The position numbers and the translations under genes were made by a program. The notes under the pieces were generated by a model. The model saw nothing but the letters and a program-made list of their open reading frames with translations, was not told the DNA's origin and ran no database searches. This document shows, piece by piece, positions 1,934 through 61,700 of a stretch of 64,000 bases of DNA (position 1 is its first letter; each line of letters begins with the position of its first letter). The DNA comes from the human T2T-CHM13v2.0 reference genome, Homo sapiens. The DNA is taken from assembly GCF_009914755.1 (NCBI RefSeq), contig NC_060934.1, one strand, 5' to 3'.

Positions 1934-4753
<2,820 letters not shown>

Positions 4754-12664: not shown

Positions 12665-15600
12665 TCATTGTTACATTTATTCTTAGGTATATATTTTTTG
12701 TTATTATATAAATGGAATATTTTCTTCCATTACATCTTATAACTGCTTTTTATGTATAAATAGGAAAGCTATTAATTTTTATTTATTAATTTTATGTGCA
12801 CCCATCTTACTGAATTTTTTTATTGTTTGAGATGGTTTTTCAGTTGATTTTCTTGGGTTCAGATAATATCTGAATTGGAAGTAAAAATAATTTTACTTTA
12901 TCCTTTAAATTTTTTAAACTTTTTTTTTCTCTTGACTAATAACATCAGCTACTATTTGCAGAACAATGTTAAATAGTGATGGTGGGCAGTCTTATCTGGT
13001 TCTTGACTTTAAAGAAATGTTTCTAGTGTTCTTCCCTTAAGCATGAGGCTGGCTTTTGGCTTATATATAAAGTTGACTTATATATTTTAGTTACCAAAAG
13101 TGATTCTTACCAGAATCGGCTGGGGAATCTTCAGGTTAAAAATAGTCTTCTGCAGCCAGGGCAACTAGTGAAACTCCATCTGTACCACAAAATATATATA
13201 TATATATATTTTTTTAATAAGCCGGGGGCAGTGGCCTGCTCCTTTAGTCCCAGCTACTCGGGAGGCTAAGGCCGGAGTGTTGCTTTAGGCCAGGAGTTCA
13301 AGACTGCAGTGAGCTATGATCCTGCCACTGCATTCCTGCCCAAGTGGCAGAGTGAGACCCTATCTCTAAAAAAAAAAAGGTTCCTGAGTGTTGCCCAGAG
13401 GGTCAGTTTCAGAAGGTCAGAGTGGGGCCCAGAAATCTATATTTTTCCTGAACTTCCTTGGTGGTTCAGATACAAGTAACATTCAGCCCAGACTTGAAGA
13501 ATTCCAGTGGATAGAAAGCACTTTAGAGTCAGCTCTGGGCTCAAGAGGGCAGCTCTTTCCCCCCATGTCATTTACTCCCTCTGAGCCTCAGTTTCCCATG
13601 CTGCTAAAAGAGGGAGAATAATCACATATGCCCTGGCGACTGGAAGAGGGGCTAAGAGGCTCAGATGAGGTAATGTCTGTGAAAACATTTGGCAGACTAG
13701 AAACGGCATATAAATGTGAGGAGGCGTGACCTCACTGTGCCCAAGAGGAAAGATATTTGGAAAAGCCTGACTGATTTTCAGGGCTCGGCGACAGCTCCTA
13801 GCGAGACTTGGACAGCCTGCTTCAAAACCCACACTTACATTCCACGAAACACGCTCTGCTTCCTTGTCAACAGGCTTTGCGTCATGTTAGGTCAGCTTCC
13901 ACTGCTCAGGGCTTTGTGCTGATCATGCATTACGGGTTGGCTTCAGAGGCACAGACACCTTACCGCCTGTGTGTGATCCAGGACTAATGAAAAAAGTCCT
14001 CTCCGGCCACACCCCGTTCCCTGCCTGGTCCCCGTGGAGTCTCCGGCATTTGAGAGAGCTTTTGTGGCTTGAATCTAAGTCACAAAACTCCCCCTGCTAA
14101 TCCCATGGGGTCACAGTTGGACCTAGTGCTTCAGGGGAGGACCAATAAGACAGAATCCATTTTGCATTTCCCTTCCTGCTTTCCTACGGAGAGATGTAAA
14201 GGTCCCTAGAGGTGAATATAATAAGATAGAGCCAACGTGGGGATGTTGCTCCCTGGGGCGCTGCTTGAGTGGTGTGACATCATGTTCTTAGTCTGAGCTT
14301 CAATAGATCTCTTAGAATGTCAGAGACCCGTCTTCTCCTAGAAAAGGAGTTCCTACCCTGTGGTCTGTGAGCTAATGAAAATGCAGGCTGCCTCAGCCTG
14401 GATTAAAAGAGGTTTTCTTTCCCGTTTCCCATTTAAAGACCCTGTAGGCTTGAAATTACCATTTAAAGCAGGAGATAAATTGCCAGAGGCCATTTCATGC
14501 CAAGGTACATTACAGAGCAGAATGTCAAAGTGTGCTTAGCCAGGAGACAGTGATGGGCAAATCCTGCTCTCTGAGAGCAGCAGGCATAAAATGTGGCCCC
14601 CGGGTAGAGGGAGGGCCCTTGCTTCCAGCCCCCATACCTTGTCTCCCTTCACCAGCAGGAATATTCTTTCTTTTGTGGCCTCTTGTTTAGGCTGTTCTTG
14701 ACCTTTCATAATTAAAATACTCTGAATTTTGGCAGGCCTTGCGCTTTTTTTTAATAAAGAGGGGGAAGCCATTTGAAGATAGAAACAAAATTGCTTGGAT
14801 GGTTGCCTGTGAAGTTACAATTATAGCAATGACTGAAGATGGAGAACAGGAATTGAGAGAAGAGGGATTTTTTTCCCCTAGCTGCCAAAATGCTGGATTT
14901 TATGTCCTTCTGTGAGAGCCTGCCATTATACATTTTAGACCCTAACTCATCAACAGTGAGTGCTAAAAGACATTCTTGAGGAAGGACTGGTTTTTGGATA
15001 CATCTAAATTTTTATTAGCTTTTGTTCCAGTATCAGTAAACATTCCTGAGTGCTTACTAGAGGCAGGGCAGTGAGAAGCAGAAGGACGAATCAAAGAACA
15101 ATTATATCCTAGCACCTGCACCATGCCTGCTGGCCAAGTGTTTTCCTTGAGAAAACCTAAAAACCTTAGCTTCCCTCCCTTTGCCTTAGTAATTCCCCAA
15201 ACTTTGCTGTTCATTGGAATCACCTGGAATGTTTTTTGGAAAATTCTGATCCCAGACTCTCACGCTAGACATTATGATTTGATTGTGGGGAGTTTTTTAA
15301 AGCTCCCCAGGTGATTCCAACGTCCAGCAGTGTTGGAGACCCACTGGCCTAACTTCCGCTCTTTCTTCAGGTTTCAGTTTAGCATTTCTTCCTTCAGGAA
15401 ACCTGCCGGAATTCTCCTTCTTCCCCCGTCTTCACACAGCTGTGACCCCGAACCCGTGGAGTATCGCTCCTTGAGGGGCTCCTGCAGCACCTGGTACTTG
15501 GCCTTGGTGATATGGACCACTTGATTCAACACTCTTCCTCTGGTTGAATGGGACATCCCTGAAGGCAGGACCAATGGCCCGCTCATTCTCCAGAGCCTGG

Positions 15601-22330: not shown

Positions 22331-23185
<855 letters not shown>

Positions 23186-43294: not shown

Positions 43295-50245
<6,951 letters not shown>

Positions 50246-53779: not shown

Positions 53780-54400
53780 CAAAGCGCTTTTATTTAGGCG
53801 CGTGCCGCCAAACCAAAGGCGCTCGCGCCGAGCTAAGCTCCTGTCGGTGAGCTTACGTCACTTCCGGCGCGCTGACGCTCAGTTGTGCGTGCCGACGCCC
53901 GCGTCAGCAAAGAGCGGAGCTGAGGGTACCCGGTTTGAAGTCGTGCGGGTCGGAGGACTGCCGCCTCCGCTACCGTCTTGGACCCCTGCTTACCGGCCGC
54001 CGCGGGGACGAGCTCGGGTAGGCGGCAGGGCAGATGCCCGAGGGCCTGCGCTGGAACGCCCCACGCCGCACCGGCCGCTCCCCTGTGCTCCGCGGCCTGG
54101 GCCTGCGCCGCTCAGCTCTCTGGAAACTAGCGCCTCAGCTGCGCGGCGCGTAGGTCGCGGGGAGCTCCGAACCGCCGGCGCCCGGCCATGGCGGTCTCCA
54201 GGTGGGTCTTGCTCCTGACGAGCAAACTGGAAGGCGATTCAGGGAAGGCATGGTCTCCTCTTAGAGCCCCCACTCCTAGAGAAGAGCGGTTCTCATTGTC
54301 ACTGGGCTCTGGAGCTTTCTTCAGTAGACTTCGGAGTTCGCCCCGTGGTCGGCGGGGGTTTGGGCTCGGGTTACTCCTGGGTAAATCGGTTCAATAATGC
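53780..54400 (+). promoter_or_regulatory. BTAF1: BTAF1 CpG-island promoter and exon 1 region, with an ETS/CRE composite motif at 53853-53867
   Basis: CpG island; TTACGTCACTTCCGG overlaps CRE-like and ETS motifs; extra CRE half-sites at ~53873 and ~53902. Confidence 0.85.
54188..54201 (+). CDS. BTAF1: BTAF1 (TBP-associated factor 172 / Mot1 ATPase) exon 1 coding part: MAVS plus a split Arg codon; exon 2 not found in the window
   Basis: Strong Kozak gccATGG, then ATGGCGGTCTCCAG|GTGGGT donor. The recalled BTAF1 N-terminus is MAVSRLDRLF, and BTAF1 is known to lie divergent to FGFBP3. Confidence 0.88.
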
Positions 54401-55920: not shown

Positions 55921-57267
55921 AACACTAATCTCTTTACGGAATTTTAGGACAGTTAATATTTCTCAATGACTGAGTGGGTTTTGAAGGTACTGTCTTTTGT
56001 TCTGGATGTTGTGTTTCAAAGAGTAGCACTCTTTTTCTGTGGATTTTTTTCTCGTTCACTTTTTTAAAAGCCTGTCATGTTTTTATGGAAGAGCTATTTC
56101 TGTGCTTAGTTTCCTTGGGCTCAGTAGTAAGCCCAAGGAAAACATTTTGAGACACTTGTGTGTTTTGGGGATAGTGTCAATTCTTGACTTTTTCACCTGT
56201 GGATTTCTTTGAATGGCAAATTTTAGTTTCAAGCTGGCCTTCTCCATGCACGAAGCACAGTTCTGTGCTAACTAAACTTCCTTTCTCTCCTGTTGGTGCA
56301 GACTCATTTTAATACTATTTTACGTAAAATAGGTGGAAAATAGCCCAGGAGATAAAAATCATATGCTAAAATCAAATCTAAAATATTTTTTGCACTGTTT
56401 ATTTCATATGCATAACTGAAGAGAAACTGTAATATTTTTAGGACATTTCCACCAGAATTTCCAACAGATGGGAAATAGTAAGTTAGTACCATTATTCCCT
56501 CAATTGTCTGGTCAAGAAATTTGAGAATGTTCTTTGACTTCCCTTTTCCTCCCACACCCCATGTCCAGCCAGTTACCAAATCCAATCCTGTATATTCTGC
56601 CTTTCTAATCTTTCTCCAGCTGATCATTTTTCTTTCTATACCAGTTACCACAATCCTAGAACATGCCACCATCTCTAGTCCAAGACACCTTTAGAGAGAC
56701 GCTTCCCTTTTGTCACTGTAAAGCTACATCCAATCTTTTGAAAATACACACTCAACCCTAGGAAAGGAAGTACTCATCTCCTTGAACATTGTATCACCTG
56801 ATAAGTCTCATAGTAAGTTTATGTATCAATGTATTTGGTATTTGGACATGTTTAGTACAAGACAGGAGCCTCTCTCCTTTTCCTGCCTTCCATGGCATCT
56901 CATTTCAATCTGTTCTTCGCTTCAGTCATATTATTTACTGATTTGAAGATTTGAACATGAACATGGTAATCTTTCTAATTAATACCTTTAGTTGTTTCCT
57001 ATTGCCTTAGGATAAAGTCCACATTCTCAAACAAACATATCTTACCAAGTCCTTTGTGATCTGGTTCCTGTGTCATCTTTTTAGATTCATCTTGTGTCAA
57101 CTTCTCTGTACTTCCCCTTCACCTTCTTCTCTCTTCTATCCTCCACCCTCCCCAGAATTCATTTTGTTACCCCCTACTGTTTATCTTTGGAACACTTCTT
57201 AGCCCCATCTCAGGTATGGCTAGTTCTGACCTTAGTGTGTTTTTTTGTTTGATTTTTTTTTTTTTGA

Positions 57268-57426
<159 letters not shown>

Positions 57427-57795
57427 TAGTAGAGATGGGGTTTCTCCATGTTGGTCAGGCTGGCCTCGAACTCCTGACTTCAGGCGATCCACCTGCCTCA
57501 ATTTTTTGATCTAAGCTTATATATTACCTTGTTCAGGACATTTTCTCTGGTTTTACTTCATCTGAGCTATTTGCACCAATACATATTCCTATCAGTCATA
57601 ATATTTATATTTTGTAATTGGTTAATTGTTCTCTTACTTGCTGGATTAACATAAACTCTGAGAGAAGGAAATGTGTCTTTGATTTTTCCATGCTCAGAAT
57701 GCCTGGCTCCTAGTGGGTGTTCAGTACATTTAAAAAAAAAATGAATGAATGATTTTGCTTCTTGCTTTGGTACCTTTTGAGTTGCCATATGAGTT

Positions 57796-58758
57796 GCCTC
57801 ATAAAGCAAAATAATGGTATTCAAAGATATAACAATTATTATTTAAATTATTCACAAGAAACACTGAAAGCCTGTAACATATACTAATTTGTTTTTTGCT
57901 GAGGTTGACTTTGTGGAAGCAAGTCAAGTAACTAGTGAATGACTAGCTGACTTTCCAGCATCCGCATCTTAGGGACAACATTGTTCTCTACTCCTACATT
58001 TGTAGGAGTATGATTTTACCGTAATTTGTGCATAGTAGACTATTTCCAGTGTTTTTCAGTGAGTACTTTTGAGTTTAACTGCCTTTTTTCTTTTTTTTTT
58101 TTTTTTTGCAGTAAGGAAAACTTTCACTATAGCTTTTTAATATTGGCCATTTTCTAATTTTAACAATCATCGGAATATTTTTTTCTTTTTAAAGCTATCT
58201 CCTATAGGAAGGCAATTAGAATAATTTTTGAAGTTTATAATATAGTAAATTCTGTGATAGCATGGCCATTTATAATGCAAAATTGATATGATGTATTTTA
58301 TGTGGTCAAATTTTTTAGACCCTGCTTAATAGGCTTGGTTTTACTGTACTTTCAGTTGTAAGAATGTGGCAGATTATGAAATGCATGGCCAACTCTTGAT
58401 GTGTAGCTGAATTACATCTTGCAAAAATAACTTTGTTACTCTCTAAAATTGTAAATACAATCATAGCATTTGAAGTTCTCTGTCAAATCCAGTGAAATAT
58501 CACTGGAAAATGATATGACTCTTTTAAACCCTTAGTAAAAGACCCAAAATCCAAATGTAGGAGTAGAGAACAATGTTGTCCTTAAGATGCGGATGCCGGA
58601 AAGTCAGCTAGTCATTCACTAGCTACTTGACTTGCTTCCACAAAGTCAACCTCAGCAAAAAACAAATTAGTGTATGTTACAGGCTTTCAGTGTTTCTTGT
58701 GAATAATTTAAATAATAAGTGTTATATTTTTGAACACCATTATTTTGCTTTATGGGGC
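57796..58758. repeat. 207-bp inverted repeat (arms 57796-58002 and 58552-58758; 549-bp spacer)
   Basis: Manual alignment of the left arm with the reverse complement of the right arm: 8 mismatches, no indels. Confidence 0.95.
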
Positions 58759-61700
58759 TTTTTCTCATTATCATGTGTTACTTAGTTGGGATTTTGCCAC
58801 CAACGGTAAAAGCAACCTTTGCGATCGCAGCACTGCACTCCAGCCTGGGCAACAGAGCAAGAATCCATCCCCCCCCCCGCCCCCCAAAAAAAGCAACCTG
58901 AGATGGATTTCTTTGGCATTTTTGTTGTTTGTTTGTTTGTTTGTTTTTGGAGGCAGAGTCTCACTCTGTCCTCCAAGCTGGAAAGCTGGAGTGCAGTGGC
59001 ACAATCACGGCCTCAAGTGATCCTCCCACCTCAGCCTCCCCAGTTGCTAGGACCACAGATGCATACCACCATGCCTGGCTAATTTTTTTTGTATATTTTG
59101 TAGAAGTGGGGTTTCATCATGTTGCCCAGGCTGGTTGCAAACTCCTGGGCTCCAGTGATCCACGTGGCTTTGCCCCTAAAGTGCTGGGATTACTGGTGTG
59201 AGCCACTGCGCCTGGTTTAGGTTTATTCATTGGTGGGGAATCTGTAGCTGTGTTGGGAACCATGACTTAATACAATTTTTTAAACAGCTTGTTTTTGCTA
59301 CCTTTGCCTGTTTATGCCACAATTAATGGAACTGATCATTGTATATTGGCTAGTTAATAGGAACATAGTTTTTCCTTAATCAGCTAGAGAAAGTTTCAGA
59401 AATATATAGTTTTCCCTCAGCGATCTGTGCTGTAAAGGTCATGTCTAAAATGTCTAGACAGTACTTATAATATGACTGTTTTAAAAGCCATACCTTAGAT
59501 TTCTCACATATCTTTGCATTTGAAAATGTTACAGTGTTCAGAAAGGGTTCAGAAAAAACAAAAACACATCCTCTTGTGGAAGAAACAAATTGCTACATAT
59601 AGCAGACCTTTGCTCAATTTTGTTAATTTTCTCTTTGCACTGTTGATACTTCAGAGCAACATTGTTTCAACAGGCCTATTCTGTCAAATAAAAGGAAGTT
59701 TCTTGATGTAGGGGACGTTCAGTGGGTCCTGGACAGGAAAATGTTAATGTAGAAAAAACTACCTTAATTACCAATAAAGGACAACACAGGTTTTCCAGGC
59801 CTATTCCTCCCTGTTAATTTATTTTTAATAATTTTTTTTTAATAGAGATGAGGTCTCTCTGTGTTGGCCAGGGTGGTCTTAAACTCCTGCCTCAAGCATT
59901 CCTCCCGCATTGGCCTCCCAAATGCTGGGATTACAAGCATGAGCCACCTCACCTGGCCCTTATTGTTAATTTCAATCCATTATAAGATGACAGAAGGAAC
60001 TATTGTAAATTATAATTCATCAAATATCTCATACTTTAAAAATTTAGAGATAAACTAGAAAAAGTAGAAGAGGCATTAATCAAAGCTTTTCCATTTCAAT
60101 CCCAATGGTAAATTCCTCCTTATTTCTTTGGCGTATTTCTCAAGGTACTAGTTTGAATTATTATTTTAAAAATTTTTTAATTGTGACACACATAAAAATA
60201 GACTGTTCTAACCATTTAAAAATACACTTTAAAATGTATTATGAATTTTACATATTAATACATAATATGTATTAATAAGAAGTTTTAAAACCACCCATAC
60301 TGCTGCTAAAGAACCTAGATTAGTATGTACTATGTTTTGTCATTAAGATAAAGTCATGCAAGAGGCTATAGGTTGTTCGATCAGGGATGGAGGGTAGAAA
60401 AAAATGTCTTGAAGGAAATAGCATAGCTTGGTTGTACATTTTCACCATTCTTCATTTAACCAATATTTACTGAGTGCTTTCTATGTTATAGGTGCTAGAG
60501 GTATAGCAGAGAAAAAAACTGTACTCTCCATTCTCATGGAGTTTATGGTCCAGGGTAGAGTGGGGTAACTTATCTAGCAAGCACCTGCCCTTACACCTGG
60601 CTTTGGTATGGTTTCACACCTTCATATTGATTCTTAGTGTTCTGTGTGATATCTTTATGTTTAAAACAACATAACATTAACATAGTTTCAAATTACCCAC
60701 AACATGACCTAGAAAGTATATGTTTAAAAACACTAGAGAATTTGTTGGAAGTTGTTTCTTTTGACCTTAATGATAATATGTGCACTGTACTAAGTTCCAC
60801 GTATTAAGTACACACTGTACACTATACTAAGTAATGGTCATTATCTTTCCTTACTTCCTGAGTAACACAGAAAAGTAAACATTCAAATCATCTATATTTA
60901 AAATTTTACTGTACTTTTGCCACGTGTAAAAAATGTATAACTAAATGGCTACTCTTGACTGGTCATGCTTTTTTAGTTAAGGCCACAAAGCTGTCTTTTT
61001 GAGGTATTCTGTCAGTTGACCTTTCCTAATTTATCAGAGAGGTTAAATATATTTTGAAAATATCAGTGAGGCTTTTTGCCCCTCCCCTCCCGAGATGTTT
61101 TAGAGTGGAAATACAGTATGTATTTGTTTATTAACTATGACGTAGTAATCTAGGACATGTTTTATTGTTTAAAATGCATGACATTTCTTTCTGTTTATTT
61201 TTATGGCTTTACTGTTATGAATTAACATAATGCAAACATCTGGAGAGGAGAGGGGTTAGATTGCAACTGCTAGCATAACCTCTACTACTATGTACTCTTT
61301 CCTTTTTCTAGGCAGTCTTTAGAACAGTTGCCTGAAATCACAGGTTACATGAATCATATCTTGTTTAGCTAATTCTCGGAATTGACATCCAGATTGAAAA
61401 TGGGCCAGATTTCTTATTCTCAATAAATTTATAACCAGTGGATATTACAAAATATAATTTTCTTATGTTTTACTTATCTTCTATAGTCTTTGGTACCTTC
61501 CATGCAACTTGACATCTGTTACCTGTGTCTCCTCCATCTGTCTGTCTATCCTTCAGAGAATGAAGAATGTTACTTTTTCCTGCTAGCTGTGTGCAACAGA
61601 AGTTTTAGCCAAAAGTAGTATGGGAGTAAGTACTGTGTTCCCTCAGTCAGCCCTCCTTTTAACTTTCCCTTCTCTTCTGACCATCTAGCTTCCTTCAGAC

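What the first reader, a model, noticed from the sequence alone, without database searches (positions are those of the whole stretch)
57796..58758. 207-bp, 96%-identical non-Alu inverted repeat in BTAF1 intron 1
Seen: two 207-bp arms with 8 substitutions and no indels, 549 bp apart, matching no repeat I recognise. In sense pre-mRNA the differences become 4 G.U wobbles, 3 A:C mismatches and 1 A:G mismatch, giving a nearly continuous ~200-bp duplex. Known: long intronic duplexes are ADAR substrates (A:C sites are favoured) and potential Dicer/PKR/MDA5 ligands, and inverted repeats mediate recurrent inversion and inter-arm gene conversion. Inference: a structured-RNA element and/or an inversion hotspot in a housekeeping gene.
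Basis: partly seen in the sequence, partly recalled or inferred. Interest (0 to 1): 0.72.

Follow-up and report, generated by a model that had tools for sequence, protein, structure and literature searches.

The report
Single-copy inverted duplication in BTAF1 intron
A 207-base stretch in the first intron of the human BTAF1 gene is present twice, head to head, 549 bases apart; it is a real, one-off local duplication rather than a jumping gene, could fold the unspliced RNA into a long double helix, and shows no sign so far of doing anything.

Summary
The arms are 57796-58002 and 58552-58758, 207 nt each, with 8 substitutions, no indels and a 549-nt spacer. In the sense RNA the differences give 4 G.U, 3 A:C and 1 A:G.

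The region is predicted to fold as one long stem, both as RNA (-451.8 kcal/mol, z = -31.5) and as DNA.

It is not a recognisable transposon. In the whole T2T genome the arm finds only itself and its partner, and the spacer only itself. Two 207-nt controls from masked repeats gave 5291 and 3553 candidates. There is no target-site duplication, no Rfam family and no ORF in either arm.

My best reading is a locus-specific inverted duplication made by a replication or repair error roughly 10-40 Myr ago, drifting neutrally since. Small junction scars at both ends of the left arm fit this.

The duplex is a plausible nuclear ADAR substrate. Editing, small RNAs, inversion and gene conversion could not be tested here.

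Recurrent NAHR inversion looks unlikely, because the longest perfect identity is only 48 bp. Interest is modest.

The parts
57796..58002 (.). Left arm of the inverted repeat (207 nt, 34% G+C). It carries the three A residues that face C in the sense RNA (57819, 57931, 57957). Possibly the derived copy.
58003..58551 (.). Single-copy spacer or loop (549 nt, 29% G+C). It has no convincing internal symmetry and no known RNA family. The only ORF of 40 aa or more wholly inside it is a 49-aa ATG ORF (58315-58464, minus strand).
58552..58758 (.). Right arm of the inverted repeat (207 nt), reverse complement of the left arm with 8 substitutions. No short palindrome or short direct repeat lies at either of its ends.
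57989..58010 (.). Perfect mini-palindrome (10-bp stems, 2-nt loop: TACTCCTACA TT TGTAGGAGTA) straddling the inner end of the left arm. Its last 8 nt (58003-58010) lie outside the arm homology. Read as a snap-back or hairpin-type junction scar, or as a pre-existing hairpin that seeded a template switch.
   Evidence: about 6 comparable non-low-complexity hairpins in 64 kb
57778..57798 (.). 9-nt direct repeat TGAGTTGCC (57778-57786 and 57790-57798, period 12) straddling the outer end of the left arm. The last 3 nt (GCC) are the first 3 nt of the arm. Read as a short templated duplication with 3-nt microhomology at a junction.
   Evidence: about 9 comparable non-low-complexity repeats in 64 kb
58084..58107 (+). 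T-rich run of 24 nt (one C) inside the spacer, followed by GCAG. It is the only part of the spacer with matches elsewhere in the genome, and those are low-complexity.

Best explanation
This is a locus-specific, non-transposon inverted duplication. One 207-bp piece of BTAF1 intron 1 was copied in reverse orientation 549 bp away in a single replication or repair accident. The likely routes are template switching or fold-back synthesis of the MMBIR/FoSTeS kind, or a small inversion with staggered breaks that duplicated one breakpoint. This probably happened in an ancestral catarrhine or hominoid, and the two copies have drifted apart neutrally since. When the intron is transcribed, the two arms can pair into a ~207-bp stem (helices of 23, 15, 95, 25 and 45 bp between the four true mismatches) closed by a 549-nt loop. 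Such a stem would be expected to bind nuclear dsRNA-binding proteins and be edited promiscuously by ADAR, then be removed and degraded with the intron, with no known consequence for BTAF1. Shown: the anatomy, the uniqueness in the genome, the absence of transposon hallmarks and the predicted fold. Inferred: the mechanism of origin, the age, which arm is derived (the left, weakly), the neutrality and the ADAR binding.
For: Exact 207-nt arms with 8 substitutions and no indels. The genome-wide search with the arm gave 2 first-look candidates, itself and its partner, even at E<=10. The spacer gave itself plus 7 short T-rich matches. Two size-matched controls from masked repeats in the same window gave 5291 and 3553 candidates at 75-89% identity, so the search does see interspersed repeats. 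There is no parent copy elsewhere, so the duplication is local. Boundaries are sharp. No direct repeat flanks the 963-bp unit. Rfam matches only the flanking Alus. No ORF of 40 aa or more lies within an arm; two flanking ORFs touch the arm ends by about 7 nt at most, and one 49-aa ORF lies in the spacer. Both ends of the left arm, but neither end of the right arm, coincide with rare short features typical of junctions: a 10-bp-stem palindrome and a 9-nt tandem direct repeat. Each has roughly a 1-2% chance of falling within about 12 nt of one of the four boundaries, given their density in the window (my estimate). Divergence is K = 0.040, which gives about 20 Myr at 1e-9 per site per year (95% range 8-38) or about 40 Myr at 0.5e-9 (the rates are recalled values). 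The substitution pattern is neutral-looking: 7 transitions to 1 transversion, 4 G.U against 3 A:C, and positions not clustered (KS p = 0.35). The predicted RNA stem has MFE -451.8 kcal/mol against -210.8 +/- 7.6 for 20 shuffles. As DNA it is -265.3 against -89.6.
Against: No outgroup genome was available, so the age, the polarity (which arm is the copy) and the orientation history of the spacer are all inferred. Inter-arm gene conversion would make the repeat older than the divergence suggests. Microhomology at the junctions is short (0-3 nt, or a 6-nt GATTTT match after a 9-nt gap), and 6-nt matches of that kind are common in shuffled flanks (1182 of 2000 shuffles). The junction-scar argument rests on two events with p of about 0.01-0.02 each, chosen after looking. 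RepeatMasker/Dfam could not be run, so a very old or very low-copy family below about 75% identity cannot be excluded. No expression, editing or duplex data were seen.
Confidence: 0.72

Rival explanations
1. The relic of a low-copy or single-copy class II (TIR or foldback-type) DNA transposon, whose 207-bp terminal inverted repeats are the arms and whose 549-bp interior is the spacer.
For: The overall shape (long terminal inverted repeats around a short AT-rich interior, 963 bp in all) is what a non-autonomous TIR element looks like. The MFE fold adds a 5-bp ATGAG/CTCAT pairing just outside the arms.
Against: There are no other copies in 3.1 Gb at a sensitivity that finds thousands of copies of the control repeats. 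There is no target-site duplication of 2, 4 or 8 bp at the arm ends or at the ATGAG/CTCAT ends (read). No transposase-like ORF is present. Arms 96% alike would make the element younger than the last known DNA-transposon activity in the primate lineage (about 37 Myr; recalled from Pace and Feschotte 2007, not read here), and families of that age have hundreds of detectable copies.
Confidence: 0.06
2. A functional structured RNA. The long intronic hairpin would be kept by selection or by inter-arm gene conversion, because its ADAR binding or editing, its Dicer processing (hpRNA or endo-siRNA), or its looping of 549 nt influences BTAF1 intron-1 processing or alternative exon use.
For: It is the most perfect long duplex in the 64-kb window. 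It sits 3.6 kb into intron 1 of a broadly expressed gene (hub annotation). Non-repetitive dsRNAs are sparse, about 2 per Mb, and highly paired ones are rare (PMC11838218, sections 9 and 10 read). No indel has accumulated in 207 bp.
Against: The substitutions do not favour pairing in the sense strand (4 G.U against 3 A:C among 7 transitions). There is no Rfam family. I found no literature on it (most 'BTAF1' hits in these searches, and every one I opened or could judge from its listing, were journal article numbers such as btaf136 or unrelated mentions). Eight changes in 207 bp is what neutral DNA of catarrhine age would show. The absence of indels in 207 bp over that time is not unusual.
Confidence: 0.07
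3. A recurrent inversion or gene-conversion hotspot. The arms would recombine (NAHR), flipping the 549-bp spacer in human populations and homogenising each other.
For: Inverted repeats do mediate inversions and conversion (PMC2583991, abstract and MEPS section passage read). A 207-bp homogeneous block with sharp edges is about the size of a conversion tract (recalled).
Against: The longest uninterrupted identity is 48 bp and the total is 207 bp, well under the reported minimal efficient processing segments (PMC2583991: a 20-fold drop from 232 to 134 bp in mouse cells; PMC3966225: 337-456 bp in humans). The 549-bp spacer is long for cruciform or hairpin-driven fragility (recalled from yeast Alu-IR work, not read). 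No flanking degenerate homology suggests an older, larger repeat. No report was found.
Confidence: 0.08
4. Assembly artefact: a chimeric palindromic read incorporated into the assembly.
For: Palindromic chimeras do occur in long-read libraries (recalled).
Against: Such artefacts give identical arms without a spacer. Here the arms differ at 8 sites in a mutation-like pattern and are separated by 549 bp of unique sequence. The assembly is a finished telomere-to-telomere one (hub note).
Confidence: 0.01

Closest known systems
Inverted duplications with a single-copy spacer, made by fold-back or template-switch replication errors (MMBIR/FoSTeS; short-range template-switch mutations in great apes, PMC7954356, seen in a search listing only)
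   Same: An inverted copy lies close by on the same chromosome, with a unique spacer between the arms, no transposon hallmarks, and short palindromic and templated features at the junctions.
   Different: Catalogued short-range template switches are tens of bases long, and disease-associated fold-back duplications are kilobases to megabases. This one is 207 bp with a 549-bp spacer. Its junction microhomology is weak, and the event itself cannot be reconstructed without an outgroup.
Inverted Alu pairs (IRAlus), the main source of human intronic dsRNA and A-to-I editing
   Same: Two inverted copies in one intron are predicted to pair into a stem of about 200-300 bp. The expected fate is the same: nuclear ADAR editing and removal with the intron.
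   Different: The arms are not Alu and not any detectable repeat. They are far more alike (96%) than the listed inverted pairs of this window (76-92%). They arose by one duplication, not by two insertions.
Non-repetitive predicted dsRNAs of the human dsRNAome (dsRNAscan, PMC11838218)
   Same: It falls in that catalogue's class of intragenic, intronic, non-repeat dsRNA. The paper reports that such structures are sparse and mostly unedited.
   Different: It is longer and better paired than the medians reported for non-repetitive dsRNAs (144 bp edited, 75 bp unedited; Table 1 passage). It is below the >300 bp used there for putative MDA5 ligands. I could not check whether this locus is in their tables.
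Non-autonomous TIR DNA transposons (MITE-like elements)
   Same: Terminal inverted repeats bracket a short non-coding interior.
   Different: There is no target-site duplication, no other genomic copy, no terminal family motif that I could test, and the arms are too alike for the age of human DNA transposons.

Membership tests
Class II TIR DNA transposon / MITE | Terminal inverted repeats | tested here: met
   207-nt arms, 96% complementary. This feature alone is not specific.
Class II TIR DNA transposon / MITE | Target-site duplication directly flanking the termini | tested here: not met
   The flanks read ...CATATGAGTT | arm and arm | TTTTTCTCATT.... There is no TA, TTAA or 8-bp direct repeat at the arm ends or at the ATGAG/CTCAT ends.
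Class II TIR DNA transposon / MITE | Multiple dispersed copies of the family in the genome | tested here: not met
   Only the 2 arms themselves were found in 3.1 Gb at E<=10. Controls gave 5291 and 3553 candidates. Copies below about 75% identity could be missed.
Class II TIR DNA transposon / MITE | Match to a curated consensus (Dfam/Repbase) | not testable with these tools
Inverted Alu pair (IRAlu) | Both arms are Alu elements | tested here: not met
   blastn of an Alu against the window hits 57240-57560, 58823-58860 and 59005-59169 but nothing in 57796-58758. Rfam SRP/Alu-type matches lie only in the flanks.
Template-switch / fold-back inverted duplication | Inverted copy in cis with a single-copy spacer and no parent copy elsewhere | tested here: met
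Template-switch / fold-back inverted duplication | Microhomology or templated insertions at the junctions | tested here: inconclusive
   A mini-palindrome (57989-58010) and a 9-nt direct repeat sharing GCC with the arm (57778-57798) lie at the two ends of the left arm. Other microhomologies are no better than in shuffles.
Template-switch / fold-back inverted duplication | One arm absent at the orthologous site of an outgroup | not testable with these tools
   No other eukaryotic genome is held; one search states that the assembly has no relatives here.
NAHR-competent inverted low-copy repeat | Uninterrupted identity at least as long as the minimal efficient processing segment | tested here: not met
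   The longest perfect run is 48 bp, against about 134-232 bp (mouse cells) and 337-456 bp (human meiosis) in PMC2583991 and PMC3966225 (passages read).
ADAR substrate / editing-enriched region | Long, mostly paired dsRNA within one transcript | tested here: met
   Predicted stem of 207 pairs with 4 mismatches, z = -31.5. It lies inside BTAF1 intron 1 on the sense strand (hub annotation). This is a prediction only.
ADAR substrate / editing-enriched region | Clustered A-to-G mismatches in RNA-seq | not testable with these tools
   No editing atlas is reachable. The site lists of PMC4365171 are too large to be read here, and its readable supplements hold no BTAF1 entry.
Known miRNA / small-RNA precursor family | Match to an Rfam covariance model | tested here: not met
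   No match at E<=1 within 57796-58758.

The most novel reading that the evidence does not exclude
The two arms are not simply drifting but are kept alike, by inter-arm gene conversion or by selection on the RNA stem. On this reading the hairpin is a primate-specific regulatory dsRNA in BTAF1 intron 1. It could be an ADAR-dependent or Dicer-dependent element affecting intron-1 processing, with the 549-bp loop possibly flipping orientation between haplotypes or species.
Probability: 0.07. Interest if true: 0.55.

Novelty: new member of a known kind. Interest (0 to 1): 0.25.

Why it matters
If the reading is right, the locus is a clean, datable example of how a single replication or repair slip creates a long, near-perfect intronic dsRNA from unique sequence, without any transposon. 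Such structures are uncommon next to the mass of Alu-derived duplexes. That makes it a convenient natural test substrate: a unique-sequence stem allows unambiguous read mapping for ADAR editing, dsRNA capture and small-RNA assays. It also gives a small case study for template-switch mutagenesis and for arm-to-arm conversion in primates. It does not at present bear on BTAF1 function or on innate immune sensing.

Tried and rejected

2. Extension of the repeat beyond 207 nt. A gapped alignment added only 4 score points over about 60 nt. A collinear 20-nt block (58043-58061 against 58490-58510) scored at p of about 0.014-0.03 in shuffles. The banded k-mer test showed no excess over other diagonals, and the right-hand block is itself a small palindrome, so I do not count it.

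3. Outer-flank homology: not better than chance (41 of 1000 shuffles at 60 nt, 105 of 1000 at 100 nt, and not collinear).

4. Retroposed origin of the spacer. The T-run lies 81 nt inside the spacer, not next to a direct repeat, so this was rejected on reading.

5. RNA-mediated copy of an edited transcript. The differences go both ways (A/G and G/A, T/C), so this was rejected.

6. Literature. Searches for BTAF1 with 'inverted repeat', 'A-to-I', and 'inversion' plus 'breakpoint' gave nothing on this locus. Most hits in these searches, and every one I opened or could judge from its listing, were article numbers such as btaf136 (checked) or unrelated mentions.

7. Supplements. The Barak et al. 2020 supplements hold no BTAF1 entry and concern mature mRNAs. 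The Porath et al. 2014 readable supplements hold none, and its two site lists are too large to open. The Potapova et al. 2022 microinversions are 17-33 nt and its supplement is a scanned PDF.

8. Soft-masking as a stand-in for RepeatMasker: the stored window carries no case information.

Full report
**1. Observation**

The repeat finder gives arms 57796-58002 and 58552-58758, 207 nt each, 96% complementary, with 549 nt between them. A script confirms 8 substitutions and no indels. There are 7 transitions and 1 transversion.

In the + strand, which is the BTAF1 sense strand according to the hub's table, the differences read as follows:
- 4 G.U: 57799/58755, 57826/58728, 57882/58672, 57972/58582
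- 3 A:C: A at 57819, 57931 and 57957
- 1 A:G: 57835/58719

The arm-to-arm blastn E-value is 1.6e-96.

A window-wide scan found 75 inverted pairs of at least 80 nt within 5 kb, of which the 25 longest were listed. In that list this pair is the most complementary. The other 24 are 76-92% complementary, and those I compared with the Alu map sit on Alu elements.

**2. Predicted structure**

Region 57780-58775 folds as RNA into one long stem closed by the spacer. The MFE is -451.8 kcal/mol, against -210.8 +/- 7.6 for 20 dinucleotide shuffles (z = -31.5). With DNA parameters the same stem appears, at -265.3 against -89.6 kcal/mol (z = -34).

Counting G.U as paired, the sense stem consists of helices of 23, 15, 95, 25 and 45 bp. 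An antisense transcript would have 5 mismatches and 3 wobbles.

**3. Is it a known repeat?**

The window's own assembly (3.1 Gb, 24 contigs) could be searched.
- The left arm finds only itself and the right arm. There were 2 first-look candidates, both scored, at E<=0.001 and again at E<=10.
- The spacer finds itself plus seven short matches in its two T-rich, low-complexity stretches (spacer positions 70-106, which hold the T-run at 58084-58107, and 174-235).

The tool warns that it skips very common words, so I ran two size-matched controls. These were 207-nt pieces of stretches that NCBI masks as repeats and that lie outside the Alu hits (43620-43826 and 4020-4226). They returned 5291 and 3553 first-look candidates, and the 40 scored in each case were 75-89% identical. 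The search therefore does see ordinary interspersed repeats, and the arms are not one, at least down to roughly 75% identity.

Other checks agree:
- An Alu query does not touch 57796-58758.
- Rfam at E<=1 matches only the flanking Alus.
- No ORF of 40 aa or more lies within an arm. Of the four ORFs overlapping 57700-58860, two end at or touch the arm edges by about 7 nt at most, one is outside, and one 49-aa ORF lies in the spacer.
- The bases flanking the 963-bp unit carry no 2-, 4- or 8-bp direct repeat that could be a target-site duplication (read).

**4. Boundaries and junctions**

The homology stops abruptly. A gapped local alignment can be pushed about 60 nt into the spacer, but it gains only 4 score points. 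A collinear 20-nt block there reaches p of about 0.014-0.03 against shuffles. A banded count of inverted k-mers near the main diagonal is no higher than on other diagonals (inner flank 7 hexamers against a mean of 1.9 and a maximum of 8; outer flank 0). I treat the repeat as a discrete 207-bp block.

Two small features coincide with the two ends of the left arm:
- At the inner end, a perfect mini-palindrome with 10-bp stems and a 2-nt loop spans 57989-58010. Its last 8 nt lie outside the arm homology.
- At the outer end, the 9-mer TGAGTTGCC occurs twice with period 12 (57778-57786 and 57790-57798). The last three bases of the second copy are the first three of the arm.

The window holds only about 6 comparable non-low-complexity hairpins and about 9 comparable short direct repeats. 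By my estimate, the chance that either kind falls within about 12 nt of one of the four boundaries is roughly 1-2% each. Neither end of the right arm has such a feature.

This is the pattern expected if the left arm is the inserted copy and its two ends are repair or replication junctions, one a snap-back or hairpin-type palindrome and the other a short templated duplication with 3-nt microhomology. A pre-existing hairpin that seeded a template switch in the other direction is also possible. These features were noticed after looking, so I give the polarity only about 60%.

**5. Age and mode of evolution**

Eight differences in 207 give a Jukes-Cantor distance of 0.040. With a recalled long-term primate rate of 1e-9 per site per year this is about 20 Myr (95% Poisson range 8-38). 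With 0.5e-9 it is about 40 Myr. Inter-arm conversion would make these minimum ages.

Three results suggest neutral drift:
- Each transition in a stem has an even chance of giving G.U or A:C in a given strand. The observed split is 4 to 3 (binomial p = 1.0).
- The 7:1 transition bias is not significant against a 2:1 expectation (p = 0.20).
- The differences are not clustered (KS p = 0.35).

With 8 sites the power of these tests is low.

**6. What it probably does**

The stem is long enough to be bound and promiscuously edited by ADAR in the nucleus. The three A:C mismatches are of the kind ADAR is known to favour (recalled knowledge, not checked here).

Other consequences look less likely:
- The element lies 3.6 kb into intron 1 (exon 1 ends at 54201; hub table), so it should leave with the intron. 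Cytoplasmic sensors would meet it only if the intron were retained or its lariat accumulated.
- At 207 bp it is below the >300 bp that favours MDA5 filament formation (PMC11838218, section 10, read).
- As a recombination substrate it is poor. The longest uninterrupted identity is 48 bp. Reducing uninterrupted homology from 232 to 134 bp already cut intrachromosomal recombination 20-fold in mouse cells (PMC2583991, passage read), and the human meiotic estimate is 337-456 bp (PMC3966225, passage read).
- A 549-bp spacer is also long for cruciform or hairpin-driven fragility (recalled, not read).

**7. Comparison with what is known**

The closest kinds are these:
- Inverted duplications with a unique spacer made by fold-back or template-switch errors.
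- Inverted Alu pairs, which it resembles in consequence but not in origin.
- The 'non-repetitive' class of predicted human dsRNAs. The dsRNAscan preprint describes these as sparse (about 2 per Mb), mostly unedited, and with median lengths of 75-144 bp (PMC11838218, sections 9 and 10 and Table 1 passage read).

I did not open that paper's supplementary tables, so I could not see whether this locus is listed.

I found no paper on this repeat. Searches for BTAF1 with 'inverted repeat', 'A-to-I', and 'inversion' plus 'breakpoint' returned 8, 5 and 22 papers. Most hits in these searches, and every one I opened or could judge from its listing, were journal article numbers such as btaf136 (checked) or unrelated mentions.

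**8. What stays open**

Editing, duplex capture, small RNAs, inversion polymorphism and concerted evolution could not be examined:
- No other eukaryotic genome or editing atlas is reachable.
- The large site lists of Porath et al. 2014 cannot be opened here.
- Its readable supplements and those of Barak et al. 2020 hold no BTAF1 entry.

**9. Verdict**

This is a real, unusually clean, single-copy inverted duplication in BTAF1 intron 1. It is most likely a neutral by-product of one replication or repair accident in an ancestral catarrhine or hominoid. It can form a ~207-bp intronic RNA duplex. It is a new member of a known kind, of modest interest. The primate alignment described under next steps would settle its origin, age and any concerted evolution.

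Noticed in passing
window 58808-58899: A 5'-truncated Alu 3' fragment (about 58823-58868, + orientation) whose tail is a C-rich run (CCCCCCCCCGCCCCCC) followed by only about 7 A. It is flanked by an 11-bp direct repeat AAAAGCAACCT (58808-58818 and 58889-58899) that looks like its target-site duplication. It lies 50 bp outside the right arm and is not part of the inverted repeat.
   Followed up: partly
window 57240-57560 and 58948-59216: Alu elements on either side of the inverted repeat (Rfam SRP-type and mir-1268/mir-1285 sub-threshold matches on the minus strand). With the truncated Alu fragment they give the 32-nt inverted pair I2.
   Followed up: partly
window 58084-58116: A 24-nt T-rich tract followed by GCAG in the spacer resembles a polypyrimidine tract plus 3' splice acceptor on the sense strand. 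No exon is annotated there and I did not score it.
   Followed up: no
window 58488-58507: An imperfect 20-nt palindrome (CAGTGAAATATCACTG core) in the spacer, 45 nt from the right arm. It explains why that stretch matches 58043-58061 in both orientations.
   Followed up: partly
window 22520-22732 and 13189-13212: TA/TG-rich microsatellite blocks that produce many perfect short palindromes. They were excluded as low complexity when estimating hairpin density.
   Followed up: no
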